Sequence record: OR062945.1
From: Escherichia phage 308Ecol101PP
Reading direction: 5' to 3' (one strand)
DNA: 64,000 nucleotides
Positions 1,533-43,965 of this stretch are shown here, piece by piece (within the stretch, counting starts at the first letter, position 1; each line of letters begins with the position of its first letter). Below the pieces are notes generated by a model that was not told the DNA's origin, did not search any database, and saw nothing but the letters and a program-made list of their open reading frames with translations. A program made the position numbers and the translations under genes.

Positions 1533-1946
1533 ATGAATATTTCTGAAACTCGCGGTAAATGGTTCAAGATTGTTAAAGAAGACGAAGAACTCCAAGATAA
1601 GTTTCCTGAATTAAAGAAAGATACGATCATCAAGGTAATTGGTACTACTACCGAAGATGGTTATGGCGACCATGGCATTATCGAAGTGATGTTGAACACA
1701 GGTGAGAAACTTTGCATCTATGACCGTGATACTTCTCTTTGGTGCTTCTGGGAATCCCATTCAATAGATGAACTCGAAGAAATTGACCAAGTAGTTTGTG
1801 ATGGTGGACTTGGCGAATTCGAAGGTGAACGTATTTCTTATGCTTTAGCTAAATTAGCCGCCCAAGAAAATAATGACGGTTATGAAGGTAATCTGATGCA
1901 AGCCGCAGCGGAATACATTGAATATTTAGAAAGACGTTTAAGTTAA
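1533..1946 (+). CDS. hypothetical acidic protein
   Basis: Track ORF 1395..1946; internal ATG at 1533 follows the stop of the preceding ORF. Confidence 0.45.
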   Translation: MNISETRGKWFKIVKEDEELQDKFPELKKDTIIKVIGTTTEDGYGDHGIIEVMLNTGEKLCIYDRDTSLWCFWESHSIDELEEIDQVVCDGGLGEFEGERISYALAKLAAQENNDGYEGNLMQAAAEYIEYLERRLS

Positions 1947-2647: not shown

Positions 2648-4461
2648 AAATTGAAAAAGAAATTGAAGGATTAATTCATAAAACTAATAAAGATCTTTTG
2701 AACGAGAATGCTAATAAAGATTCTCGTGTTTTTCCAACTCAACGGGACCTTATGGCTGGTATTGTGTCTAAGCACATTGCCAAAAATATGGTCCCGTCTT
2801 TTATTATGAAAGCACATGAAAGCGGAATTATCCATTTCCATGATATTGATTATTCCCCTGCTCTTCCATTTACTAATTGCTGTTTAGTAGATTTAAAAGG
2901 AATGCTTGAAAACGGGTTTAAGCTAGGTAATGCTCAAATTGAAACGCCTAAATCGATTGGTGTTGCTACTGCAATTATGGCACAAATTACCGCACAGGTT
3001 GCTTCACATCAGTACGGCGGAACGACTTTTGCTAATGTAGATAAAGTACTTTCTCCTTATGTTAAACGCACCTATGCAAAACATATTGAGGATGCAGAAA
3101 AATGGCAAATCGCTGATGCGTTGAATTATGCCCAATCTAAAACAGAAAAAGACGTATACGATGCATTTCAAGCTTATGAGTATGAAGTAAATACTCTTTT
3201 TAGCTCAAACGGTCAAACGCCTTTTGTAACAATTACATTTGGTACTGGAACTGACTGGACTGAACGAATTATTCAGAAAGCAATTCTTAAAAACCGCATT
3301 AAAGGCCTTGGTCGTGATGGAATAACTCCTATTTTCCCTAAACTTGTTATGTTCATTGAAGAGGGTGTCAATCTTTATAAAGACGACCCGAACTATGATA
3401 TTAAGCAGCTTGCTCTAGAGTGTGCAAGCAAAAGAATGTATCCTGATATTATTTCAGTTAAGAACAATAAAGCTATCACTGGTTCATCTATTCCTGTTTC
3501 TCCAATGGGTTGTCGTAGTTTCTTGAGTGTATGGAAAGATTCGACTGGAAATGAAATTCTTGATGGACGTAATAATCTTGGTGTTGTAACACTGAATCTT
3601 CCTCGTATTGCGTTAGATTCTTATATTGGAACACAATTCAATGAACAGAAATTTGTTGAGCTATTTAATGAACGAATGGATCTGTGTTTTGAAGCCTTGA
3701 TGTGTAGAATTAGTTCTTTAAAGGGTGTTAAAGCAACTGTTGCTCCTATTCTTTACCAAGAAGGTGCATTCGGGGTTCGTCTTAAACCTGATGACGATAT
3801 AATTGAGTTATTTAAAAACGGTAGAAGTTCAGTGTCCTTAGGATACATTGGTATTCACGAATTGAATATTCTTGTCGGTCGTGATATTGGACAAGAAATT
3901 TTAACTAAAATGAATGCTCGTCTTAAGCAGTGGACTGAAAGAACCGGTTTTGCTTTTAGCTTGTATTCTACTCCTGCTGAAAACCTGTGCTATCGCTTCT
4001 GTAAACTTGATACCGAGAAATATGGAAGTGTAAAAGATGTTACTGATAAAGGCTGGTACACTAATAGTTTCCATGTTTCAGTAGAAGAAAATATCACTCC
4101 GTTTGAAAAGATTTCTCGCGAAGCCCCATATCATTTCATTGCGACTGGCGGACATATTTCTTATGTTGAACTTCCTGATATGAAAAATAACCTAAAAGGT
4201 CTTGAGGCTGTATGGGATTATGCTGCACAACATTTAGATTATTTTGGTGTTAATATGCCAGTAGATAAATGTTTTACATGTGGAAGTACTCATGAAATGA
4301 CTCCTACTGAAACCGGATTTGTTTGTTCTATTTGTGGAGAAACTGACCCTAAAAAGATGAACACCATAAGAAGAACATGCGGTTATCTTGGAAATCCTAA
4401 CGAACGCGGATTTAATCTCGGCAAAAATAAAGAAATCATGCATAGGGTTAAACACCAATGA
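2644..4461 (+). CDS. nrdD: anaerobic ribonucleoside-triphosphate reductase
   Basis: 605 aa, C-terminal glycyl-radical region and CxxC zinc site (CFTCGS...CSICGE); uninterrupted ORF. Confidence 0.9.
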   Translation: MKIEKEIEGLIHKTNKDLLNENANKDSRVFPTQRDLMAGIVSKHIAKNMVPSFIMKAHESGIIHFHDIDYSPALPFTNCCLVDLKGMLENGFKLGNAQIETPKSIGVATAIMAQITAQVASHQYGGTTFANVDKVLSPYVKRTYAKHIEDAEKWQIADALNYAQSKTEKDVYDAFQAYEYEVNTLFSSNGQTPFVTITFGTGTDWTERIIQKAILKNRIKGLGRDGITPIFPKLVMFIEEGVNLYKDDPNYDIKQLALECASKRMYPDIISVKNNKAITGSSIPVSPMGCRSFLSVWKDSTGNEILDGRNNLGVVTLNLPRIALDSYIGTQFNEQKFVELFNERMDLCFEALMCRISSLKGVKATVAPILYQEGAFGVRLKPDDDIIELFKNGRSSVSLGYIGIHELNILVGRDIGQEILTKMNARLKQWTERTGFAFSLYSTPAENLCYRFCKLDTEKYGSVKDVTDKGWYTNSFHVSVEENITPFEKISREAPYHFIATGGHISYVELPDMKNNLKGLEAVWDYAAQHLDYFGVNMPVDKCFTCGSTHEMTPTETGFVCSICGETDPKKMNTIRRTCGYLGNPNERGFNLGKNKEIMHRVKHQ

Positions 4462-38797: not shown

Positions 38798-39109
38798 ATG
38801 GTTTATGTATATGCAATAGTTTATCGAGATATGGAAGGATTTACTGTCCCGGTTCCACTTGATGAGCATCGTCCTGCAGTATTTTTTAGAAAGGATATTG
38901 CAGATAAAGTTTTCGATACTTTGAAAACACAGTATAAAACAGATTTAAAAATGGGAGTTCTAAGAATGGTTGAAACTCCGCGTAAGTTCTGGTTTAATAA
39001 GCTTGAAATGAAACACGTTAAACTAGATGCGGAGACGCAAAGATTGTATCAACGAATCCTGGACACAGGCCGTATTGTTAGTATTCCAATTGCAGGGACT
39101 TTACGATGA
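38798..39109 (+). CDS. hypothetical protein (dda.1 locus)
   Basis: 103-aa ORF. Confidence 0.45.
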   Translation: MVYVYAIVYRDMEGFTVPVPLDEHRPAVFFRKDIADKVFDTLKTQYKTDLKMGVLRMVETPRKFWFNKLEMKHVKLDAETQRLYQRILDTGRIVSIPIAGTLR

Positions 39110-40419
39110 CATTTGATGATTTGACTGAAGGCCAGAAAAACGCCTTCAACGTTGTTATGGAAGCTATTAAAGAAAAGAAACATCATGTAACTATTAATGG
39201 ACCTGCTGGTACAGGTAAAACAACCCTTACTAGATTCATCGTTGAAGCCCTTATTTCTTCTGGAGAATCAGGTATTATTTTAGCAGCCCCTACACATGCT
39301 GCTAAAAAGGTTCTAAGCAAACTTGCTGGTCAAGAAGCATCGACTATTCATAGCATTCTTAAAATCAACCCAACTACATACGAAGAAAACGTATTGTTTG
39401 AACAGAAAAAGGTTCCAGACTTAGCCTTGTGTCGTGTACTGTTATTTGATGAAGCGTCAATGTGCGACCGTTCTCTGTTTAAAATAATGTTAGCTAGTAT
39501 CCCTAAATGGTGTACAGTAATTGGAATCGGCGACCGATGCCAGATTCGTCCGGTAGACCCAGGCGAATCAACTGCGTATCTAAGTCCTTTCTTCACTCAC
39601 AAAGACTTCGTGCAATGCAACCTTACAGAAGTTAAACGTAGCAATGCACCAATTATTGATGTTGCGACTGATATTCGTAATGGCAAATGGATTTACGATA
39701 AAGTAGTTGATGGGCACGGCGTTCATGGATATACAGACCTTAAATCGTATATGATGAACTATTTTAACGTCGTTAAAACTCCTGAAGACCTTTTCGAAAA
39801 TCGAATGATGGCATTCACAAATAAGTCGGTGGACAAGTTAAATTCAATTATTCGCCGAAAACTTCTTGAAACAGAAAAACCATTTATTAAAGACGAAGTC
39901 ATTGTTCTACAAGAGCCATTTACTAAGACATATAAGCTAGACGGTAAAAATATGACCGAAATGCTTTTCAATAATGGGCAATTCGTTCGTATTCGAGATG
40001 CTGTAGAAACGTCTACATTCGTTAAAGCACGTGGTGTTTCAGGCGAATATATGATACGATACTGGAATCTTACAGTAGAAACATATGGTGATGATGAAGA
40101 ATACGTCCGAGAGGATATAAAGGTTATTTCTTCTGAAGAAGAGCTTTATAAATTCAATTTGTTTTTGGCTAAGACCGCAGAAACATACAAATTCTGGAAT
40201 AAAGGTGGTAAAGCTCCATGGAGCGAATTCTGGGATGCTAAACGTATGTTCACTAAGGTGAAGGCACTACCAGTATCAACCTTCCATAAGGCCCAGGGTA
40301 TGTCTGTTGACACAGCCTTTGTTTATACACCGTGTATCCATTATGCCGATTCAGAATTAGCTAAACAGTTATTGTATGTCGGCACAACTCGTGGTCGGTT
40401 TGACGTCCATTTTATTTGA
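39106..40419 (+). CDS. dda: DNA helicase Dda (SF1)
   Basis: 437 aa, Walker A GPAGTGKTT, Walker B LLFDEASM. Confidence 0.85.
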   Translation: MTFDDLTEGQKNAFNVVMEAIKEKKHHVTINGPAGTGKTTLTRFIVEALISSGESGIILAAPTHAAKKVLSKLAGQEASTIHSILKINPTTYEENVLFEQKKVPDLALCRVLLFDEASMCDRSLFKIMLASIPKWCTVIGIGDRCQIRPVDPGESTAYLSPFFTHKDFVQCNLTEVKRSNAPIIDVATDIRNGKWIYDKVVDGHGVHGYTDLKSYMMNYFNVVKTPEDLFENRMMAFTNKSVDKLNSIIRRKLLETEKPFIKDEVIVLQEPFTKTYKLDGKNMTEMLFNNGQFVRIRDAVETSTFVKARGVSGEYMIRYWNLTVETYGDDEEYVREDIKVISSEEELYKFNLFLAKTAETYKFWNKGGKAPWSEFWDAKRMFTKVKALPVSTFHKAQGMSVDTAFVYTPCIHYADSELAKQLLYVGTTRGRFDVHFI

Positions 40420-40428
40420 GAGAAAATT

Positions 40429-41106
40429 ATGAGCACTGACGTTATTATAGATTTTGAAACATTCGGCAATACATCAAAAGCGGCTGTTATTGACCTTGCG
40501 GTTATTGCATATAATTCCGACCCTGAAGTTGTTGAATCATTTGAAGAACTTGTTCAACGAGGTAAGCGAATTAAATTTAATTTAGCTTCTCAGAAAGGGA
40601 AGCGAGTTTTCGCTAAATCCACTATGAAATGGTGGAAAGAACAATCGGCTGAAGCACGTAAAAACTTGGCTCCGTCTGAAGACGATGTCACTACGCTTGA
40701 AGGCATCAAAATCTTTTTAGATTATTGCCGAGCTAATAAAGTTGACCAATGGAAATCACAGATGTGGTGCCGTGGTATGAGCTTTGACTTCCCGATCTTG
40801 GTCGATTTGATTCGTGACCTCTATCGTGATGAAGGTGTTCTTGAACCAGATATTGATACTGATAAATTAGAACCGGTTAAATTCTGGGCTCAACGCGATA
40901 TTCGTACGGCAATCGAAGCTTACTCGTTGACACGAGGATTAAGTATGTGTCCATTACCGATGGGTACGCTAAAAGGATTCGTTGCCCATGATAGTGTTCA
41001 TGATTGTGCTAAAGATATTTTGATGTTAAAATATGCTCAGCGTTATGCGCTTGGTCTTGAAGATGTCCCTGAGAATCCTGACCCGTTAAGTGTAAAACAG
41101 CGATAA
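40429..41106 (+). CDS. dexA: exonuclease A (DnaQ-like 3'-5' exonuclease)
   Basis: 225 aa with exo motif IIDFETFG; T4 DexA is 227 aa. Confidence 0.8.
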   Translation: MSTDVIIDFETFGNTSKAAVIDLAVIAYNSDPEVVESFEELVQRGKRIKFNLASQKGKRVFAKSTMKWWKEQSAEARKNLAPSEDDVTTLEGIKIFLDYCRANKVDQWKSQMWCRGMSFDFPILVDLIRDLYRDEGVLEPDIDTDKLEPVKFWAQRDIRTAIEAYSLTRGLSMCPLPMGTLKGFVAHDSVHDCAKDILMLKYAQRYALGLEDVPENPDPLSVKQR

Positions 41107-41111
41107 AATCA

Positions 41112-41141
41112 GTTTACAACCAAGGACGGTTGGAGTATAAT
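41112..41141 (+). promoter_or_regulatory. early promoter (GTTTAC, 18 nt, TATAAT)
   Basis: Hexamers read directly. Confidence 0.5.
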
Positions 41142-41171
41142 CTTTCTATCTTAACCAAACGGGAAACAATT

Positions 41172-41666
41172 ATGAATATCAATACTACGTCTACTTACAT
41201 CCTGAAAGACGAAAAACAAATCAACTGGTACGGTGCTTCAGTGCGAGCTTATGAAAAGTTTTGTGAAATTTTAGGTGCCACTCAAGGTAATAGTTTCACT
41301 ATTGTTAACTTCATCAAACAAGTTGAAGGCCCTTGGTTATTCTTAGAAATTAAAAATTCATACGGTACAATTTCTACTACTGCCCTTCCGAGCACCGACT
41401 TTGAACTCTTGATTGAAGAAGCACCTGTTAAAGATGGTCTCCACTTTGATATGGATATCGTTTGTATGTACGGTACTCTGATTAAGCCTATTGAGCCTAC
41501 TGATTTATTGTGTAAATATGTTTCAATTCGACGCCCATTCGATGGTCCAGTAAATGGATGGGTAACTGACCAGTGGATTGAAGATGGGGTTGAACTTCTG
41601 AACGTTGTTCATGCCGGTGATTTTAGTGTGGTTCCGCGTAGTGCTGTGGTTAATATCCTTAATTAA
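41172..41666 (+). CDS. dexA.1-family paralog A
   Basis: Track ORF starts at TTG inside the promoter; ATG at 41172; C-terminal module GWVTDQWIEDGVELLNVVHAGDFSVVP shared with the next two genes. Confidence 0.5.
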   Translation: MNINTTSTYILKDEKQINWYGASVRAYEKFCEILGATQGNSFTIVNFIKQVEGPWLFLEIKNSYGTISTTALPSTDFELLIEEAPVKDGLHFDMDIVCMYGTLIKPIEPTDLLCKYVSIRRPFDGPVNGWVTDQWIEDGVELLNVVHAGDFSVVPRSAVVNILN

Positions 41667-41668
41667 TG

Positions 41669-41698
41669 TTGTACATCCAAGGATGGATGGAGTATAGT
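41669..41698 (+). promoter_or_regulatory. candidate early promoter (TTGTAC ... TATAGT)
   Basis: 18-nt spacing. Confidence 0.4.
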
Positions 41699-41726
41699 GA
41701 ATTCAATTTAAACAAAGAGAGAAATT

Positions 41727-42257
41727 ATGATTACTATTGGTGAAATCCTTCGTGTATCTCCTGCTTCTCGTTCTAAAGCTGCAGGTCGTCTGGTTGAAGT
41801 AGCAGGACTTCGTACTAACGGCATGGGACGTGTTAAAGAAGTTAAAGTTCGAATCATCCCCAGTTTTGGCGGACAAGACGCCCAGTATGCTTACGTAAGT
41901 CCTAAATTCCTGGAAAAACATATACGAGTCCAATTTGCTTCAAGCGAAGAAGTTGCACCTGCACACTTTGCTTCTGTTGAAGAAGTTGAATCACGTGATG
42001 GATACGTATGTGAATCCACTGAGCCTAATGTACAGTTCAAATGGGCCCTTTGCAAAGGCGTTGAATTTATAACCGATAAAGAATTTGATTACATCGACGA
42101 ATACGGTTATCCAAGCAAAACTGATATTATGTGTGGCTTCATTAGTGACCAATGGGTTGAAGATGGTGAAAAGTTATACAATATCGTATTCTTAGGTGAC
42201 TTCCGAGTTGTTAAAGAATCTGAAATCACTCGCTATGTGTCTCCTCGTAAAGCTTAA
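41727..42257 (+). CDS. dexA.1-family paralog B
   Basis: 176 aa; N-terminal ASRSKAAGRLVEV and C-terminal GFISDQWVEDGEKLYNIVFLGDFRVV shared with paralog C. Confidence 0.5.
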   Translation: MITIGEILRVSPASRSKAAGRLVEVAGLRTNGMGRVKEVKVRIIPSFGGQDAQYAYVSPKFLEKHIRVQFASSEEVAPAHFASVEEVESRDGYVCESTEPNVQFKWALCKGVEFITDKEFDYIDEYGYPSKTDIMCGFISDQWVEDGEKLYNIVFLGDFRVVKESEITRYVSPRKA

Positions 42258-42266
42258 GGAATTATT

Positions 42267-42686
42267 ATGAATATTGTAAATCTCTCTACAGGTGATTACG
42301 TATATGTATCTGTTGCTTCTCGCTCTAAAGTTGCCGGGAAGTTGGTTGAAGTTCTTTCTGTGAGTGATCCGGTTTTTGGTCGTAACCAAGTTAAAGTTCG
42401 TGACGCTGATGGCAACATTGGTTACGTTAAAAGCCAATTCATTGAACCGGAAGAAAAAGCGTTCAAATGGAAACTGTGCAGGTCTGTTTTAGTTGTAAAA
42501 GACCATGAATTTACTATTGCTGCTGCAACTGACGGGTCTCCATGGTCAACGAATCAAGTTGCTGGTTTTATTTCGGACCAATGGGTAGAAGATGGTGTTA
42601 AGCTTTATAACATCGTTTTCGCTGGACAGTTCATGGTAGTTCCTGAGTTCCAAATCAAAAAATATTGTCCAGCATCTTTTGCATAA
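42267..42686 (+). CDS. dexA.1-family paralog C
   Basis: 139 aa; ASRSKVAGKLVEV ... GFISDQWVEDGVKLYNIVFAGQFMVV. Confidence 0.5.
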   Translation: MNIVNLSTGDYVYVSVASRSKVAGKLVEVLSVSDPVFGRNQVKVRDADGNIGYVKSQFIEPEEKAFKWKLCRSVLVVKDHEFTIAAATDGSPWSTNQVAGFISDQWVEDGVKLYNIVFAGQFMVVPEFQIKKYCPASFA

Positions 42687-42690
42687 AGTT

Positions 42691-42719
42691 GTTTACTTCT
42701 CCTCTGGATTTGGTATTAT
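42691..42719 (+). promoter_or_regulatory. early promoter (GTTTAC, 17 nt, TATTAT) inside a 10-bp inverted repeat
   Basis: Arms TCTCCTCTGG (42698-42707) and CCAGAGGAGA (42731-42740); the downstream arm contains the Shine-Dalgarno sequence. Confidence 0.5.
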
Positions 42720-42745: not shown

Positions 42746-43270
42746 ATGTTAGTTTACCGCGTAGAACGTAGTTTTTGTACTCAACGTGAATCATTACCAG
42801 GAATTGCTATCGAAGATGGTAAAGCCGTCAGAATTTGGGAAACCTCTTGGAATAAAGAACCTCGCTCGCCATACGGCTGGTCGGGCACCGACAACTCTGA
42901 AGAAACATGGGAGTTCCTTGATAAGCATGGAATACTCTCAGGTAACTTCTACCATCATGGCGACAACTATAATGTCCCTAATCGTCCTACAGTAAATGAA
43001 GACAAACTCCTTGAACAAAATATCTTAAGATACTATAGAATTGATCACACATTTGAATTGAGTGAAGATTGGGCTCAAGGGTTCTATTTTGGATTTGAAA
43101 GTGTTGACGCGGTTTATGCATGGTTTGATGACCAGGTGGATGTTGAACTCTTGAAAGCTAAAGGATACTACATCGCGGTCTATGAAGCACCTGATTTCAT
43201 CCTCGGAAGTTGTCAATTAATGTTTAGACGTTCATTGGCAGAACAAGTTGATTTTATTTTGCTAAAATGA
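42746..43270 (+). CDS. hypothetical protein
   Basis: Track ORF 42665..43270 starts upstream of the promoter; ATG 42746 follows the Shine-Dalgarno sequence. Confidence 0.45.
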   Translation: MLVYRVERSFCTQRESLPGIAIEDGKAVRIWETSWNKEPRSPYGWSGTDNSEETWEFLDKHGILSGNFYHHGDNYNVPNRPTVNEDKLLEQNILRYYRIDHTFELSEDWAQGFYFGFESVDAVYAWFDDQVDVELLKAKGYYIAVYEAPDFILGSCQLMFRRSLAEQVDFILLK

Positions 43271-43299
43271 TGTACAACAACTATGGCCTATGATACTAT
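43271..43299 (+). promoter_or_regulatory. candidate early promoter (TGTACA, 17 nt, TACTAT)
   Basis: Followed by the TAGACCTATCAA motif. Confidence 0.4.
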
Positions 43300-43327
43300 A
43301 GACCTATCAAAACAAGAGGAGAATATT

Positions 43328-43555
43328 ATGAAACGTCAAATCATTAAAAACGTAACTACTGATTCAAACATCGATGAGTTTGAAGATGTTCTGTTTAATC
43401 CTGATTTAGTTGTTGTACAGAAAAACTGGACCGAATTTTTATGCTACACCGAAGTGGTTTACGTTTACGAAAAACTCGGTGATGAAATGCCTATCTATGG
43501 TATCTTCCGTGAAATCACTGAAAACGGTACAACTTATTGGAAGGAAACTTATTAA
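43328..43555 (+). CDS. hypothetical protein
   Basis: Track ORF 43283 starts inside the promoter; ATG 43328 has AGAGGAGAATATT upstream. Confidence 0.4.
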
Positions 43556-43965
43556 TGGCTAATAAATTCCGCGTTAACTCATGGTACCAATTTATAGATA
43601 AACGTACCCAAAAAGAGTTTATTAAAAACCACACTGATAATGGGATTTATGCACGACGTCTTGGCATGGAACCATTTAAAGTATTAGATGTTGACCATCT
43701 TGGCCGTCCTACTAAAATTGTGACATCTACTGGCACGGTTGGATACGCAACAGGCGGTGATATTCTTGATGAAAACTTTATCTGGCTCTCTACTAGTGAA
43801 GCAGAGTTTTTTGATGAAGTGGGAAATCCATATCAAGCGTCCGAAGAGCAAGATTCTGGTGAACTTGACGAATTGACTGAATTTCCTGTGACGACGATTA
43901 CTATCGAAAATAACGACCAGGCATGGTCTTTGTATCAAATGTTGAAAGCACATTTTAAGGAATAA
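43555..43965 (+). CDS. hypothetical protein
   Basis: TAATG overlap; 136 aa. Confidence 0.45.

What the first reader, a model, noticed from the sequence alone, without database searches (positions are those of the whole stretch)
41112..42686. Tandem triplication of dexA.1-like genes, each with its own regulatory context
Three consecutive genes after dexA share a conserved C-terminal module (G-F/W-I/V-S/T-DQW-V/I-EDG...L-Y/L-N-I/V-V...G-D/Q-F-x-VV). The second and third also share an N-terminal ASRSK-x-AG-x-LVEV segment. The first two have their own early promoters; the third is coupled to the second. Expansion and diversification of a small domain family right after an exonuclease gene is typical of host-interaction or anti-defence genes under diversifying selection.
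Basis: seen in the sequence. Interest (0 to 1): 0.55.

Follow-up and report, generated by a model that had tools for sequence, protein, structure and literature searches.

The report
Known MotB.1 plus two MotB genes
The three genes after dexA are the already-described motB.1 / motB / second-motB early gene cluster of RB69-like (Mosigvirus) T-even phages, small DNA-binding host-takeover proteins that share a 37-residue C-terminal module; the repeat is real, but the "dexA.1-like" name and the diversifying-selection reading are not supported.

Summary
Three consecutive + strand genes (G1 41172-41666, G2 41727-42257, G3 42267-42686) share a C-terminal core. BLASTP gives G2/G3 E=4e-28, G1/G2 3e-10 and G1/G3 3e-11. 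G2 and G3 also share the N-terminal ASRSK-AG-LVEV segment.

The name is wrong. T4 dexA.1 and dexA.2 lie between dda and dexA and show no similarity to these genes. The window is a Mosigvirus (97.7% identical to phage ST0). G1 is the MotB.1 homologue, G2 is MotB (Pfam PF17613, E=1e-35) and G3 is a second, linker-less MotB (E=4e-22).

This arrangement is already published for RB69: two motB plus one motB.1 (Patterson-West 2021, PMC7827196). About 200 phage genomes carry a close G3 homologue, typically with all three copies.

Only 36-37 residues are demonstrably shared by all three genes; the N-terminal domains of G1 and MotB are unrelated.

Gene-wide dN/dS is 0.14-0.29, higher than the neighbours (0.02-0.07) but far below 1. 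Only the G2 acidic linker approaches neutrality (0.79). Variation comes mainly from linker indels, allele swaps and domain chimeras.

Likely function, by homology to T4 MotB, is early nucleoid/DNA binding that perturbs H-NS. G2 and G3 are not basic overall, so this is an inference.

Side finding: the 119-aa motB.1 of the T4 reference and the "29-aa peptide" of RB69 are frameshifts found only in those reference records.

The parts
41113..41141 (+). Sigma-70/T4-early-type promoter-like site upstream of G1 (TTTACA, 17-nt spacer, TATAAT). Its spacer carries CCAAGGACGGTTGGAGTATA.
   Evidence: 11 of 12 matches. A promoter is annotated at the same place in phage NBG1. Conserved in 7 Mosigvirus loci. 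The spacer element occurs only twice in the window.
41172..41666 (+). G1: MotB.1 homologue, 164 aa, acidic (pI 4.6). It has a MotB.1-type N-terminal domain (about residues 1-85), a DMDIVCMYGTLIKP motif, and then a PTDLLCK segment followed by the MotB-type C-terminal core.
   Evidence: phrog_2333 E=8e-81 over the full length. BLASTP against T4 MotB.1 E=1e-26. Pfam PF17613 hits residues 88-159 only, 34.6 bits against a cutoff of 25. AF2 mean pLDDT 81. The BFVD fold search finds T4 P39415, which is MotB.1.
41547..41654 (+). Shared C-terminal core module in G1 (residues 126-161, PVNGWVTDQWIEDGVELLNVVHAGDFSVVPRSAVVN). It forms four beta-strands in the model.
   Evidence: hhalign, core HMM E=8e-24, AF2 strands E127-137, 140-147, 150-155 and 159-163.
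41670..41698 (+). Promoter-like site upstream of G2 (TGTACA, 17-nt spacer, TATAGT), with the same spacer element CCAAGGATGGATGGAGTATA.
41727..42257 (+). G2: MotB orthologue, 176 aa. It has a basic KOW-like N-terminal domain (residues 1-63, pI 10.3), an acidic linker of variable length (64-103) and a C-terminal domain (104-176).
   Evidence: Pfam PF17613 E=1.2e-35 over residues 1-171. phrog_1671 E=8e-63. BLASTP against T4 MotB E=1e-41, 42% identity. pI values.
41934..41999 (+). Two 11-aa tandem units in the G2 linker (FASSEEVAPAH / FASVEEVESRD). This is the site of length variation among orthologues, which run from 151 to 176 aa.
   Evidence: Alignments. Linker dN/dS is 0.79.
42126..42233 (+). 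Shared C-terminal core module in G2 (residues 134-169).
   Evidence: Core HMM E=2e-26. dN/dS of the C-terminal part (residues 135-176) is 0.07.
42256..42260 (+). AAGGA ribosome-binding site for G3. It overlaps the G2 stop codon, and the G2-G3 gap is 9 nt.
   Evidence: Read directly from the sequence. No + strand promoter-like site lies between G2 and G3.
42267..42686 (+). G3: second MotB paralogue, 139 aa. It is linker-less, lacks the RIIPxxG hairpin insert, and has a neutral N-terminal domain (pI 6.2).
   Evidence: Pfam PF17613 E=4.2e-22. phrog_1671 E=3e-51. BLASTP against T4 MotB E=4e-27. AF2 mean pLDDT 85.
42555..42662 (+). Shared C-terminal core module in G3 (residues 97-132).
   Evidence: Core HMM E=7e-27 and hhalign.
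40429..41106 (+). dexA (exonuclease A), the upstream neighbour. It starts 9 nt after the dda stop, so no dexA.1 or dexA.2 genes lie between them here.
   Evidence: Pfam PF16473 E=5e-20 and phrog_255 E=2e-81. ORF coordinates.
42746..43270 (+). G4: MotB.2 homologue, the downstream neighbour, with its own promoter-like site at 42692-42719. It is not a member of the shared-module family. In T4 this gene sits before motB.1, whereas here it sits after the motB pair.
   Evidence: phrog_1106 E=2e-45. Aligns only with T4 MotB.2. Annotated motB.2 in RB69. Promoter-like site.

Best explanation
The region is the motB.1 - motB - motB' early-gene cluster of an RB69-like T-even phage (genus Mosigvirus).

**What the three genes are.**
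- G2 is the orthologue of T4 MotB: a basic KOW/SH3-like N-terminal domain, an acidic linker of variable length, and a small beta-barrel C-terminal domain.
- G3 is an old, diverged, linker-less paralogue of G2.
- G1 is the MotB.1 orthologue. It has a different N-terminal domain, described in the literature as LSm-like, fused to the same C-terminal core.

**Shown here.**
- Homology and family membership.
- The 37-aa shared core.
- The promoter-like sites.
- The distribution and the mode of variation.

**Inferred from T4 work (PMC6070864, PMC7827196).**
- The proteins are made within the first minutes of infection: G1 from its own early promoter, and G2 plus G3 from a second one.
- The MotB-type proteins coat DNA non-specifically through the basic N-terminal domain.
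- They remodel H-NS/StpA-DNA complexes on the host nucleoid, and possibly on phage DNA, which modestly raises burst size.

**My own inference.**
- The acidic, extremely conserved C-terminal core is a common partner-binding or oligomerisation module.
- The different N-terminal heads and linkers give the three proteins different nucleic-acid affinities, i.e. subfunctionalisation.

**Evolution.** The family changes mainly by recombination between paralogues and alleles (copy gain and loss, domain chimeras, linker repeat indels), under purifying selection on the core.
For: **Identity.**
- Pfam PF17613 is above its gathering score for all three genes (123, 79 and 35 bits against a cutoff of 25).
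- PHROG 1671 matches G2 and G3; PHROG 2333 matches G1.
- BLASTP against T4 MotB gives E=1e-41 (G2) and 4e-27 (G3). G1 against T4 MotB.1 gives E=1e-26.
- Public Mosigvirus records annotate these genes as MotB, MotB-like or motB.1.
- PMC7827196 explicitly reports RB69 with two motB and one motB.1, and a conserved C-terminal domain shared by MotB and MotB.1.

**Structure.**
- The AF2 models have mean pLDDT 85 (G3) and 81 (G1).

**Distribution.**
- Three modules are present in the window and 8 other loci, including Tequatrovirus RB27.
- Two modules are present in T4 and 9 other loci.
- One module is present in 3 IMG/VR viral contigs (L016-L018); the host genus of these was not checked directly.
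- Wherever both types occur, the MotB.1-type gene lies directly upstream of the MotB-type gene.
- The module occurs in only 29 of 1.84 billion cluster representatives. In the 25 credible hits it is C-terminal in small proteins.

**Selection and mosaicism.**
- dN/dS is 0.14-0.29, the core is at 0.07-0.14 and the linker at 0.79.
- 9-11 of the 16-24 identical core residues use different codons between copies, so there has been no recent gene conversion.
- Chimeras P0035 and P0104 occur in loci with a single MotB-type (KOW N-terminal) gene.
- A G2 N-terminal allele swap is seen in L020 and L021.
- In RB27, G3 is 91% identical to the window copy while dexA is only 67%.

**Charge.** Every KOW-type N-terminal domain in 109 MotB homologues with a recognisable motif has pI 9.5-11.3.
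Against: - No experiment exists for any Mosigvirus MotB paralogue.
- T4 MotB's DNA binding was rationalised by its basicity (pI 9.23). Here G2 has pI 5.4, G3 has pI 6.6 with a neutral N-terminal domain, and G1 has pI 4.6. T4-like non-specific DNA coating may therefore not hold for G3 or G1.
- The T4 motB knock-down has only a 2-fold burst effect, and the motB.1 deletion has no phenotype (PMC6070864; PMC12152347).
- The promoters are consensus matches only. No transcription start site data exist for this phage.
Confidence: 0.85

Rival explanations
1. One reading: the copies are host-interaction or anti-defence genes that expanded and are diversifying under positive selection. Each copy would be tuned to a different host defence, or to a different variant of a host target such as H-NS, StpA or another xenogeneic silencer.
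For: - The three genes are the most variable in their neighbourhood among near-identical genomes. G2 falls to 67% protein identity where dda, dexA and cef stay at 98% or above and G4 at 96.6% or above.
- dN/dS is 3-15 times that of dda and dexA.
- Copy number varies from 1 to 3 between lineages.
- Alleles and domains are exchanged across genera.
- T4 MotB perturbs H-NS, a xenogeneic silencer (PMC7827196).
Against: - Gene-wide and domain-wide dN/dS are all below 1. The shared module is the most constrained part, at 0.07-0.14.
- dS is raised in parallel with dN (0.35-0.37 against 0.07-0.13). This points to old alleles moved by recombination rather than rapid adaptive substitution.
- The highest dN/dS (0.79) is in a low-complexity acidic linker and is compatible with relaxed constraint.
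- No defence-specific phenotype is known: T4 motB mutants lose 2-fold in burst in ordinary lab strains, and the motB.1 deletion shows nothing.
- The sample is small (8 genomes, pairwise NG86 counts), so site-specific positive selection is not excluded.
Confidence: 0.2
2. G1 (MotB.1) acts on RNA rather than DNA. Its N-terminal domain would be an LSm/Hfq-like RNA-binding barrel, and the shared C-terminal core would merely be a common structural scaffold. On this view the three genes do not act in one pathway.
For: - Kim et al. 2025 (PMC12152347) predict an LSm-like fold for the MotB.1 N-terminal domain, grouped with GoF and Frd.2.
- G1 is strongly acidic (pI 4.6), which is unlike a non-specific DNA coater.
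- The G1 and MotB N-terminal domains are unrelated in profile comparison (probability 0.5%).
Against: - The same paper found no effect of MotB.1 on the RNA reporter and no phenotype for the motB.1 deletion.
- An acidic surface argues against RNA binding as much as against DNA binding.
- The core is the best-conserved part of the MotB.1 family, up to 88% identity across proteins with different N-terminal domains. This suggests the core, not the N-terminal domain, carries the key function.
- Wherever both gene types occur, motB.1 lies immediately upstream of motB, which suggests a functional link.
Confidence: 0.15
3. The similarity is a chance or compositional artefact, and the three ORFs are unrelated.
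For: None beyond the short length of the G1 match (29-37 aa).
Against: - BLASTP E-values run from 3e-10 to 4e-28.
- hhalign gives E=4e-15 with independent alignments.
- Pfam PF17613 is above threshold in all three genes.
- The motif is conserved in every related locus examined.
- There are only three hits in the 64-kb six-frame translation.
Confidence: 0.01

Closest known systems
Bacteriophage T4 MotB (gene motB, Pfam PF17613, PHROG 1671; Patterson-West et al. 2018 and 2021)
   Same: - G2 and G3 align with T4 MotB end to end (42% and 39% identity, E=1e-41 and 4e-27).
- They have the same two-domain layout, with the SRSKAAGxLVEV motif in a KOW-like N-terminal domain and the GxI(S/T)DQWVEDGxKLYN(I/V)VF core.
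- They occupy the same genomic slot between dexA and cef, behind an early-type promoter.
   Different: - There are two copies here instead of one.
- G2 carries a longer acidic linker with an 11-aa repeat and is acidic overall (pI 5.4 against 9.23).
- G3 lacks both the linker and the RIIPxxG insert, and its N-terminal domain is neutral.
- No functional data exist for either copy.
RB69 motB.1 / motB / RB69p010 cluster (NC_004928; described in PMC7827196 as two motB, one motB.1 and a 29-aa peptide)
   Same: - Gene order and content are the same: dexA, motB.1, motB, second motB, motB.2, cef, goF.
- Protein identities to RB69 are G3 89%, G2 77% and G1 91% over the intact part.
   Different: - In the window G1 is one intact 164-aa ORF.
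- In the RB69 reference it is split into a 132-aa ORF plus a 29-aa ORF by two single-T insertions that are absent from the window and from the three other Mosigvirus loci aligned.
- G2 is 25 aa longer here because of linker repeats.
T4 MotB.1 (P39415, PHROG 2333; Kim et al. 2025 LSm-like fold family with GoF and Frd.2)
   Same: - G1 aligns with T4 MotB.1 over residues 3-136 (37% identity, E=1e-26).
- Both lie immediately upstream of motB.
- Both are acidic.
   Different: - G1 has a 20-residue insert (DGLHFDMDIVCMYGTLIKPI) that T4-type MotB.1 lacks but other family members carry.
- G1 has its own promoter. In T4, motB.1 follows motB.2 by 10 nt.
- The T4 reference protein (119 aa) lacks the core because of a reference-specific 1-nt insertion. 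Other T4 genome records encode 143 aa with the core.
T4 DexA.1 / DexA.2
   Same: Only the neighbourhood (the dda-dexA region) and the fact that both are small early genes.
   Different: - There is no sequence similarity: E=2.3 and no PF17613 hit.
- They lie upstream of dexA, between dda and dexA.
- This window has no gene in that position; the dda-dexA gap is 9 nt.
Tandem SH3-like small beta-barrel nucleic-acid/chromatin readers (Spt5/NusG KOW repeats, 53BP1 tandem Tudor, KIN17 tandem SH3-like)
   Different: - Sequence identity is only 10-23%.
- No aromatic-cage or other functional motif was checked.
- This is a fold resemblance only, not homology shown here.

Membership tests
MotB family (Pfam PF17613 / PHROG 1671) | Profile match above the curated threshold. 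| tested here: met
   PF17613 scores are G2 123.2 bits, G3 79.2 bits and G1 34.6 bits, against a cutoff of 25. phrog_1671 gives G2 E=8e-63, G3 E=3e-51, and G1 E=8e-15 over its C-terminus only.
MotB family (Pfam PF17613 / PHROG 1671) | Full two-domain architecture: a KOW-like N-terminal domain with the SRSK-AG-LVEV motif plus a C-terminal domain with the DQWVEDG-KLYN core. | tested here: met
   Met for G2 (profile positions 2-157 of 162) and for G3. Not met for G1, whose N-terminal domain shows no similarity to the MotB N-terminal domain (hhalign probability 0.5%). G1 is therefore a member only through the C-terminal core.
MotB family (Pfam PF17613 / PHROG 1671) | A highly basic protein that binds DNA non-specifically (T4 MotB pI 9.23, PMC6070864). 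| tested here: not met
   Whole-protein pI is 5.36 for G2 and 6.57 for G3. The G2 N-terminal domain is basic (10.3) but the G3 N-terminal domain is neutral (6.2). DNA binding itself cannot be tested with these tools.
MotB family (Pfam PF17613 / PHROG 1671) | Co-purification with H-NS/StpA, toxicity in E. coli, and a 2-fold burst-size effect. | not testable with these tools
   These properties are known only for T4 MotB (PMC6070864, PMC7827196).
MotB family (Pfam PF17613 / PHROG 1671) | Genomic position in the early dexA-to-cef block of Tevenvirinae, behind an early-type promoter. | tested here: met
   Gene order is dda, dexA, G1, G2, G3, motB.2, cef, goF.
MotB C-terminal domain as a cold-shock-type OB-fold (HHpred assignment in PMC7827196) | The predicted structure matches OB-fold proteins. 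| tested here: inconclusive
MotB.1 family (PHROG 2333; Category 2 of PMC7827196) | Full-length similarity to T4 MotB.1 and its relatives. | tested here: met
   G1 matches phrog_2333 with E=8.4e-81 over residues 1-164. BLASTP against T4 MotB.1 gives E=1e-26. The BFVD fold search hits P39415 and other family members.
MotB.1 family (PHROG 2333; Category 2 of PMC7827196) | An LSm-like five-stranded N-terminal barrel (Kim et al. 2025). | tested here: inconclusive
MotB.1 family (PHROG 2333; Category 2 of PMC7827196) | The gene lies immediately upstream of motB. | tested here: met
   True in the window and in all 18 other loci (L001-L015, L019-L021) that carry both gene types.
T4 DexA.1 / DexA.2 | Sequence similarity to DexA.1 or DexA.2. 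| tested here: not met
   BLASTP of DexA.1 against G1 gives E=2.3. Neither DexA.1 nor DexA.2 hits PF17613.
T4 DexA.1 / DexA.2 | Position between dda and dexA. | tested here: not met
   In T4 they lie between dda and dexA. The genes in question lie downstream of dexA, and the dda-dexA gap in the window is 9 nt.
Genes under diversifying (positive) selection | dN/dS above 1 for the gene or for a domain. | tested here: not met
   NG86 over 8 Mosigvirus genomes gives G1 0.14, G2 0.29 and G3 0.15. The highest domain value is 0.79, in the G2 linker. Site-level tests were not possible.

The most novel reading that the evidence does not exclude
The invariant, acidic 37-residue C-terminal beta-module (GW/F-V/I-T/S-DQW-I/V-EDG-x-x-L-x-N-V/I-V) is a shared docking or oligomerisation module.
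- It would bring three different N-terminal heads to one common target, such as H-NS/StpA-DNA filaments or each other. The heads are a basic KOW domain (G2), a neutral KOW domain (G3) and an acidic LSm-like domain (G1).
- The extra, non-basic G3 copy would then be a specialised counter-silencing or anti-defence paralogue.
- The variable acidic linker of G2 would tune that activity between host strains.
Probability: 0.2. Interest if true: 0.5.

Novelty: already known. Interest (0 to 1): 0.15.

Why it matters
As a finding it adds little. The motB/motB.1 family, its shared C-terminal domain and the extra motB copy in RB69-like phages are in the literature and in public annotation.

What this re-examination adds is modest:

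1. **A sharper definition of what is shared.** Only 36-37 residues (four beta-strands) are shared between MotB.1 and MotB, and their N-terminal domains are unrelated.
2. **A caution on function.** The basicity used to explain T4 MotB's DNA binding is confined to the KOW N-terminal domain across the family, and it is lost in the second copy (G3).
3. **How the family varies.** It changes by recombination (chimeras, allele swaps, linker repeats) rather than by detectable positive selection.
4. **A correction relevant to published work.**
   - The 119-aa MotB.1 of the T4 reference and the "29-aa peptide" of RB69 come from insertions found only in those reference records.
   - The intact proteins carry the full core module.

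Tried and rejected
**Searches that found nothing useful.**
- A PDB sequence search with G2 gave nothing significant (best E=0.91).
- Tandem Repeats Finder on the region returned only a trivial 9-nt repeat in G1. It did not pick up the diverged 33-nt linker repeat, which was seen only at protein level.
- Rfam at gathering threshold on the whole window gave no hit.
- The antisense ORFs inside G2 and G3 (81, 76 and 54 aa) have no PHROG hit and are treated as spurious.
- No extra copy of the core exists elsewhere in the 64 kb. I was looking for the "29-aa peptide" as a fourth copy; it turned out to be the tail of a frameshifted motB.1 in RB69.

**Results I discarded or down-weighted.**
- My first hhalign of A5 against A6 (E=1.3e-29 over 125 columns) was inflated, because P0185 and P0188 were in both alignments. 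I repeated it without shared sequences and used only that result.
- I considered recent gene conversion as the reason for the identical core. I rejected it because 9-11 of the 16-24 identical residues use different codons between copies.
- I considered MotB to be an internal duplication of one barrel. Comparing the N-terminal and C-terminal profiles gave probability 0.8%, so it is not supported at sequence level.
- The three long proteins (829-1329 aa) in the representative search have E around 1e-4 with several short stretches. I treated them as spurious and did not pursue them.
Full report
**1. What is in the sequence**

On the + strand the region reads as follows:

| Gene | Coordinates | Size |
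|---|---|---|
| dda | 39106-40419 | 437 aa |
| dexA | 40429-41106 | 225 aa |
| G1 | 41172-41666 | 164 aa |
| G2 | 41727-42257 | 176 aa |
| G3 | 42267-42686 | 139 aa |
| G4 | 42746-43270 | 174 aa |
| cef | 43283-43555 | 90 aa |
| goF-like gene | 43555-43965 | 136 aa |

- The three C-terminal cores are GWVTDQWIEDGVELLNVVHAGDFSVV, GFISDQWVEDGEKLYNIVFLGDFRVV and GFISDQWVEDGVKLYNIVFAGQFMVV.
- G2 and G3 also share ASRSK(A/V)AG(R/K)LVEV.

The similarity is far beyond chance.
- BLASTP gives E=4e-28 for G2/G3 (38% identity, full length), 3e-10 for G1/G2 and 3e-11 for G1/G3.
- An HMM of the core finds only these three copies in the six-frame translation of the whole 64-kb window.

**2. What the genes are**

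The window is a Mosigvirus, an RB69-like T-even phage. The 2.9-kb region is 97.7% identical to Escherichia phage ST0, and 128 phage records cover at least 80% of it.

Family searches identify each gene.
- G2: Pfam PF17613 (MotB, "modifier of transcription"), E=1.2e-35 over its full length; PHROG 1671.
- G3: PF17613, E=4.2e-22; PHROG 1671.
- G1: PF17613 only over residues 88-159 (34.6 bits, cutoff 25); PHROG 2333 over its full length, E=8e-81.
- G4: PHROG 1106.

Comparison with T4 (NC_000866) fixes the orthology.
- G2 is the MotB orthologue (42% identity, E=1e-41).
- G3 is a second MotB (39% identity, E=4e-27).
- G1 is MotB.1 (37% identity, E=1e-26).
- G4 is MotB.2.

Gene order differs between the two phages.
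- T4: dda, dexA.2, dexA.1, dexA, motB.2, motB.1, motB, cef.
- This window: dda, dexA, motB.1, motB, motB', motB.2, cef.

- DexA.1 and DexA.2 lie upstream of dexA.
- They have no PF17613 hit.
- DexA.1 against G1 gives E=2.3.
- The RB69 record gives the old synonyms dexA.-1, dexA.-2 and dexA.-3 for motB.2, motB.1 and motB.

**3. It is already described**

Patterson-West et al. 2021 (PMC7827196) grouped 102 phage homologues into MotB and MotB.1 categories.
- They noted the conserved C-terminal domain shared by the two.
- They proposed that one gene arose by duplication of the other.

Kim et al. 2025 (PMC12152347) predicted an LSm-like N-terminal domain for MotB.1. Several public records annotate all three genes as MotB-type regulators.

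**4. Anatomy of the shared module**

With alignments that share no sequences, profile-profile comparison of the MotB.1 and MotB families detects homology only over 36-37 residues.
- The matched stretches are G1 126-161 and G3 97-132, at probability 98.5-98.9% and E=4e-15 to 1.6e-17.
- The N-terminal domains are unrelated (probability 0.5%).
- My first comparison was inflated by two shared sequences and is discarded.
- The Pfam alignment of G1 extends further back, through the "LLCKxV" strand. The whole small C-terminal domain is therefore probably homologous, with a variable insert.

The AlphaFold2 models have mean pLDDT 85 (G3) and 81 (G1).
- They show all-beta domains, and the core forms four consecutive strands.
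- No classic cold-shock/CspA-type OB entry is in the top 60, so the published HHpred assignment of an OB-fold C-terminal domain is not reproduced.
- The tables do not show which domain was matched, so I leave this point open.

The module is rare. A profile of the three window copies finds it in only 29 of 1.84 billion cluster representatives. In the 25 credible hits it sits at the C-terminus of proteins of 43-251 aa. Most remote members carry a KOW-type N-terminal domain together with MotB.1-type C-terminal motifs, which looks like the ancestral architecture.

**5. Regulatory context**

Promoter-like sites lie at three positions:

| Site | Sequence | Matches | Upstream of |
|---|---|---|---|
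| 41113-41141 | TTTACA, 17 nt, TATAAT | 11 of 12 | G1 |
| 41670-41698 | TGTACA, 17 nt, TATAGT | 9 of 12 | G2 |
| 42692-42719 | not listed here | | G4 |

- The scan as a whole is not enriched over shuffles. Support comes from position, from a promoter annotated at the first site in phage NBG1, and from conservation in seven other Mosigvirus loci.
- The G1 and G2 promoters share a 20-nt spacer element, CCAAGGAyGGwTGGAGTATA, that occurs nowhere else in the window (0 expected).
- The T4 and RB27 motB promoters have a different spacer.
- G3 begins 9 nt after the G2 stop and has its own AAGGA.
No transcription start site data exist.

**6. Copy number and mode of evolution**

A core-HMM scan of the loci fetched up to that point gives the following copy numbers.
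- Three modules: the window, six Mosigvirus-type loci (L001-L003, L005, L006 and L021; L006 and L021 carry no genus label), Carettavirus phiE142 (L020) and Tequatrovirus RB27 (L019).
- Two modules: T4 and nine other loci.
- One module: three IMG/VR viral contigs (L016-L018), whose host genus was not checked directly.

tblastn of G3 finds 777 phage records, about 207 of them with at least 80% identity; the sampled rows typically show three places per record.

Protein identity among seven other Mosigvirus-type loci (excluding RB27):

| Gene(s) | Identity |
|---|---|
| dda, dexA, cef | 98-100% |
| G4 | 96.6-99.4% |
| G1 | 91-98% |
| G2 | 67-98% |
| G3 | 86-96% |

Pairwise NG86 dN/dS over 8 genomes:

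| Gene | dN/dS |
|---|---|
| dda | 0.017 |
| dexA | 0.05 |
| G4 | 0.07 |
| G1 | 0.14 |
| G3 | 0.15 |
| G2 | 0.29 |

- By domain, the cores are at 0.07-0.14, the G2 N-terminal domain at 0.36 and the G2 linker at 0.79.
- dS is also raised in G2 and G3 (0.35-0.37 against 0.07-0.13).

The variation has identifiable sources.
- **Linker indels.** 11-aa acidic units in the G2 linker give orthologues of 151, 154, 158, 165 and 176 aa.
- **N-terminal allele swap.** In L020 and L021 the G2 N-terminal domain is replaced by a T4-type allele.
- **Cross-genus exchange.** In RB27, G3 is 91% identical to the window copy while dexA is only 67%.
- **Chimeras.** P0035 has a G2-type N-terminal domain with a G3-type C-terminal domain. 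P0104 has a T4-type N-terminal domain with a G3-type C-terminal domain. Both occur in loci that carry only one MotB-type (KOW N-terminal) gene.
- **No recent gene conversion.** Between copies, 9-11 of the 16-24 identical core residues use different codons.

The picture is relaxed constraint plus recombination on a strongly conserved core. It is not demonstrable diversifying selection. Site-level tests on more genomes remain to be done.

**7. Likely mechanism**

For T4 MotB the following has been shown (PMC6070864, PMC7827196).
- Early, abundant expression.
- Tight, non-specific binding to modified and unmodified DNA.
- Altered H-NS footprints.
- De-repression of part of the H-NS regulon.
- Toxicity in E. 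coli.
- A 2-fold burst-size benefit.

By homology I infer the same for G2, but charge data add a caveat.
- T4 MotB has pI 9.23. Here G2 has pI 5.4, G3 has pI 6.6 and G1 has pI 4.6.
- Across 109 MotB homologues with a recognisable motif, the KOW N-terminal domain is always basic (pI 9.5-11.3), while whole-protein pI ranges from 4.7 to 9.5.
- The G3 N-terminal domain is neutral (6.2).

My working model, which is inference:
- The basic KOW domain is the DNA-binding head.
- The acidic, nearly invariant core is a partner-binding or self-association module common to all three proteins.
- G3 and G1 are subfunctionalised variants.
- The motB.1 deletion in T4 has no phenotype and MotB.1 had no effect on an RNA reporter.

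**8. Side finding**

In the T4 reference (NC_000866.4 / AF158101.6), motB.1 ends at ...DQWIGRWR* after 119 aa.
- The +1 frame continues EDGVELLNVVHAGEYSVVPRSAVVAILN*, which is the core.
- The cause is one extra G: ATTGGAAGATGG against ATTGAAGATGG.
- Only the two reference records carry it. Thirteen other T4, T4T, RB55 and RB59 records are 1 nt shorter over the segment.
- T4T and T4 MT984581 annotate a 143-aa MotB.1.
- The intact form, P0122, is seen on 256 contigs.

The RB69 reference likewise has two single-T insertions, absent from the window and from the three other Mosigvirus loci aligned. They split motB.1 into a 132-aa ORF plus the "29-aa peptide" RB69p012. That peptide is the Category 3 entry of the 2021 paper. 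The 2025 paper describes MotB.1 as 13.8 kDa and does not mention a frameshift.

**9. Verdict**

A real paralogous family with plausible promoters and elevated variability is there, but the name is wrong and diversifying selection is not supported.
- The feature is already known and ordinary for this phage group, so interest is low.

Noticed in passing
L004 (T4 NC_000866.4) locus 1722-1850, minus strand; compare window 41547-41666: The T4 reference motB.1 (119 aa) is truncated by a single extra G just before the shared core, and the core is intact in the +1 frame. Only the two reference records have the insertion. Thirteen other T4/T4T/RB55/RB59 genome records lack it, and two of them annotate a 143-aa protein. 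Published MotB.1 work cites the 13.8-kDa (119-aa) form.
   Followed up: yes
L005 (RB69 NC_004928.1) locus 1482-1978; compare window 41172-41666: The RB69 "29-aa hypothetical peptide" (RB69p012, Category 3 in Patterson-West 2021) is the C-terminal tail of motB.1. It is cut off by two single-T insertions that are absent from the window and from the three other Mosigvirus loci aligned. It is not a separate mini-gene.
   Followed up: yes
window 41120-41139 and 41677-41696: The promoter-like sites of G1 and G2 share a 20-nt spacer/-10 element, CCAAGGAyGGwTGGAGTATA. It occurs nowhere else in the 64-kb window and is conserved at both places in seven other Mosigvirus loci. The T4 and RB27 motB promoters have a different spacer. 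Either one promoter was copied from the other, or there is a shared regulatory site.
   Followed up: partly
window 41934-41999 (G2 residues 70-91): The acidic G2 linker contains two diverged 11-aa units (FASSEEVAPAH / FASVEEVESRD). Orthologues differ by blocks of about 11 aa (151, 154, 165 and 176 aa). Linker dN/dS is 0.79.
   Followed up: partly
L024 1373-1894; L025 3001-3492; L026 2199-2690; L027 37-528: Chimeric single-copy MotB genes occur in metagenome assemblies. P0035 combines a G2-type N-terminal domain with a G3-type C-terminal domain. P0104 combines a T4-type N-terminal domain with a G3-type C-terminal domain. They look like products of recombination between the tandem paralogues or between alleles.
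   Followed up: partly
L019 (Tequatrovirus RB27) 3001-3420, against window 42267-42686: RB27, a Tequatrovirus, carries a G3 copy 91% identical to the window's, while its dexA is 67% and its motB.1 47% identical. The second motB copy is therefore not Mosigvirus-specific and has probably moved between genera.
   Followed up: partly
L020 and L021, locus 2440-2988 (G2 orthologues): In phiE142 and LF82-2 the N-terminal domain of G2 is replaced by a T4-type allele (SIQLKEGVKDEDSE in place of LRTNGMGRVKE), while the C-terminal domain stays of the Mosigvirus type. This is an intragenic mosaic.
   Followed up: no
L001 3739-4332; L021 2443-2991; proteins P0001, P0003 and P0034: Several public records and metagenome gene calls extend G2 by about 21 aa at the N-terminus (for example MEYNEFNLNKERE...). 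The extension starts inside the -10 region of the promoter-like site and is probably an over-extended ORF call.
   Followed up: no
L016-L018, locus 3971-4357: Three IMG/VR viral contigs (L016-L018) carry a single family member that combines a KOW-type N-terminal domain with a MotB.1-type C-terminal domain (DPTDLL...GWVTDQW...ELLNVVH). A 50%-identity cluster representative nearly identical to these (P0233) was found in the representative-library search. This may be the ancestral architecture from which MotB and MotB.1 diverged.
   Followed up: partly
window 43555-43965 (goF-like gene): The goF homologue is also more variable than its neighbours among Mosigvirus genomes (88-94% protein identity, dN/dS 0.17). 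The literature predicts that it shares an LSm-like fold with the MotB.1 N-terminal domain.
   Followed up: no
window 42746-43270: The motB.2 homologue (G4) lies downstream of the motB pair here, with its own promoter-like site. In T4 and RB27 it lies between dexA and motB.1 and heads that transcription unit. This is a local gene-order rearrangement between genera.
   Followed up: no
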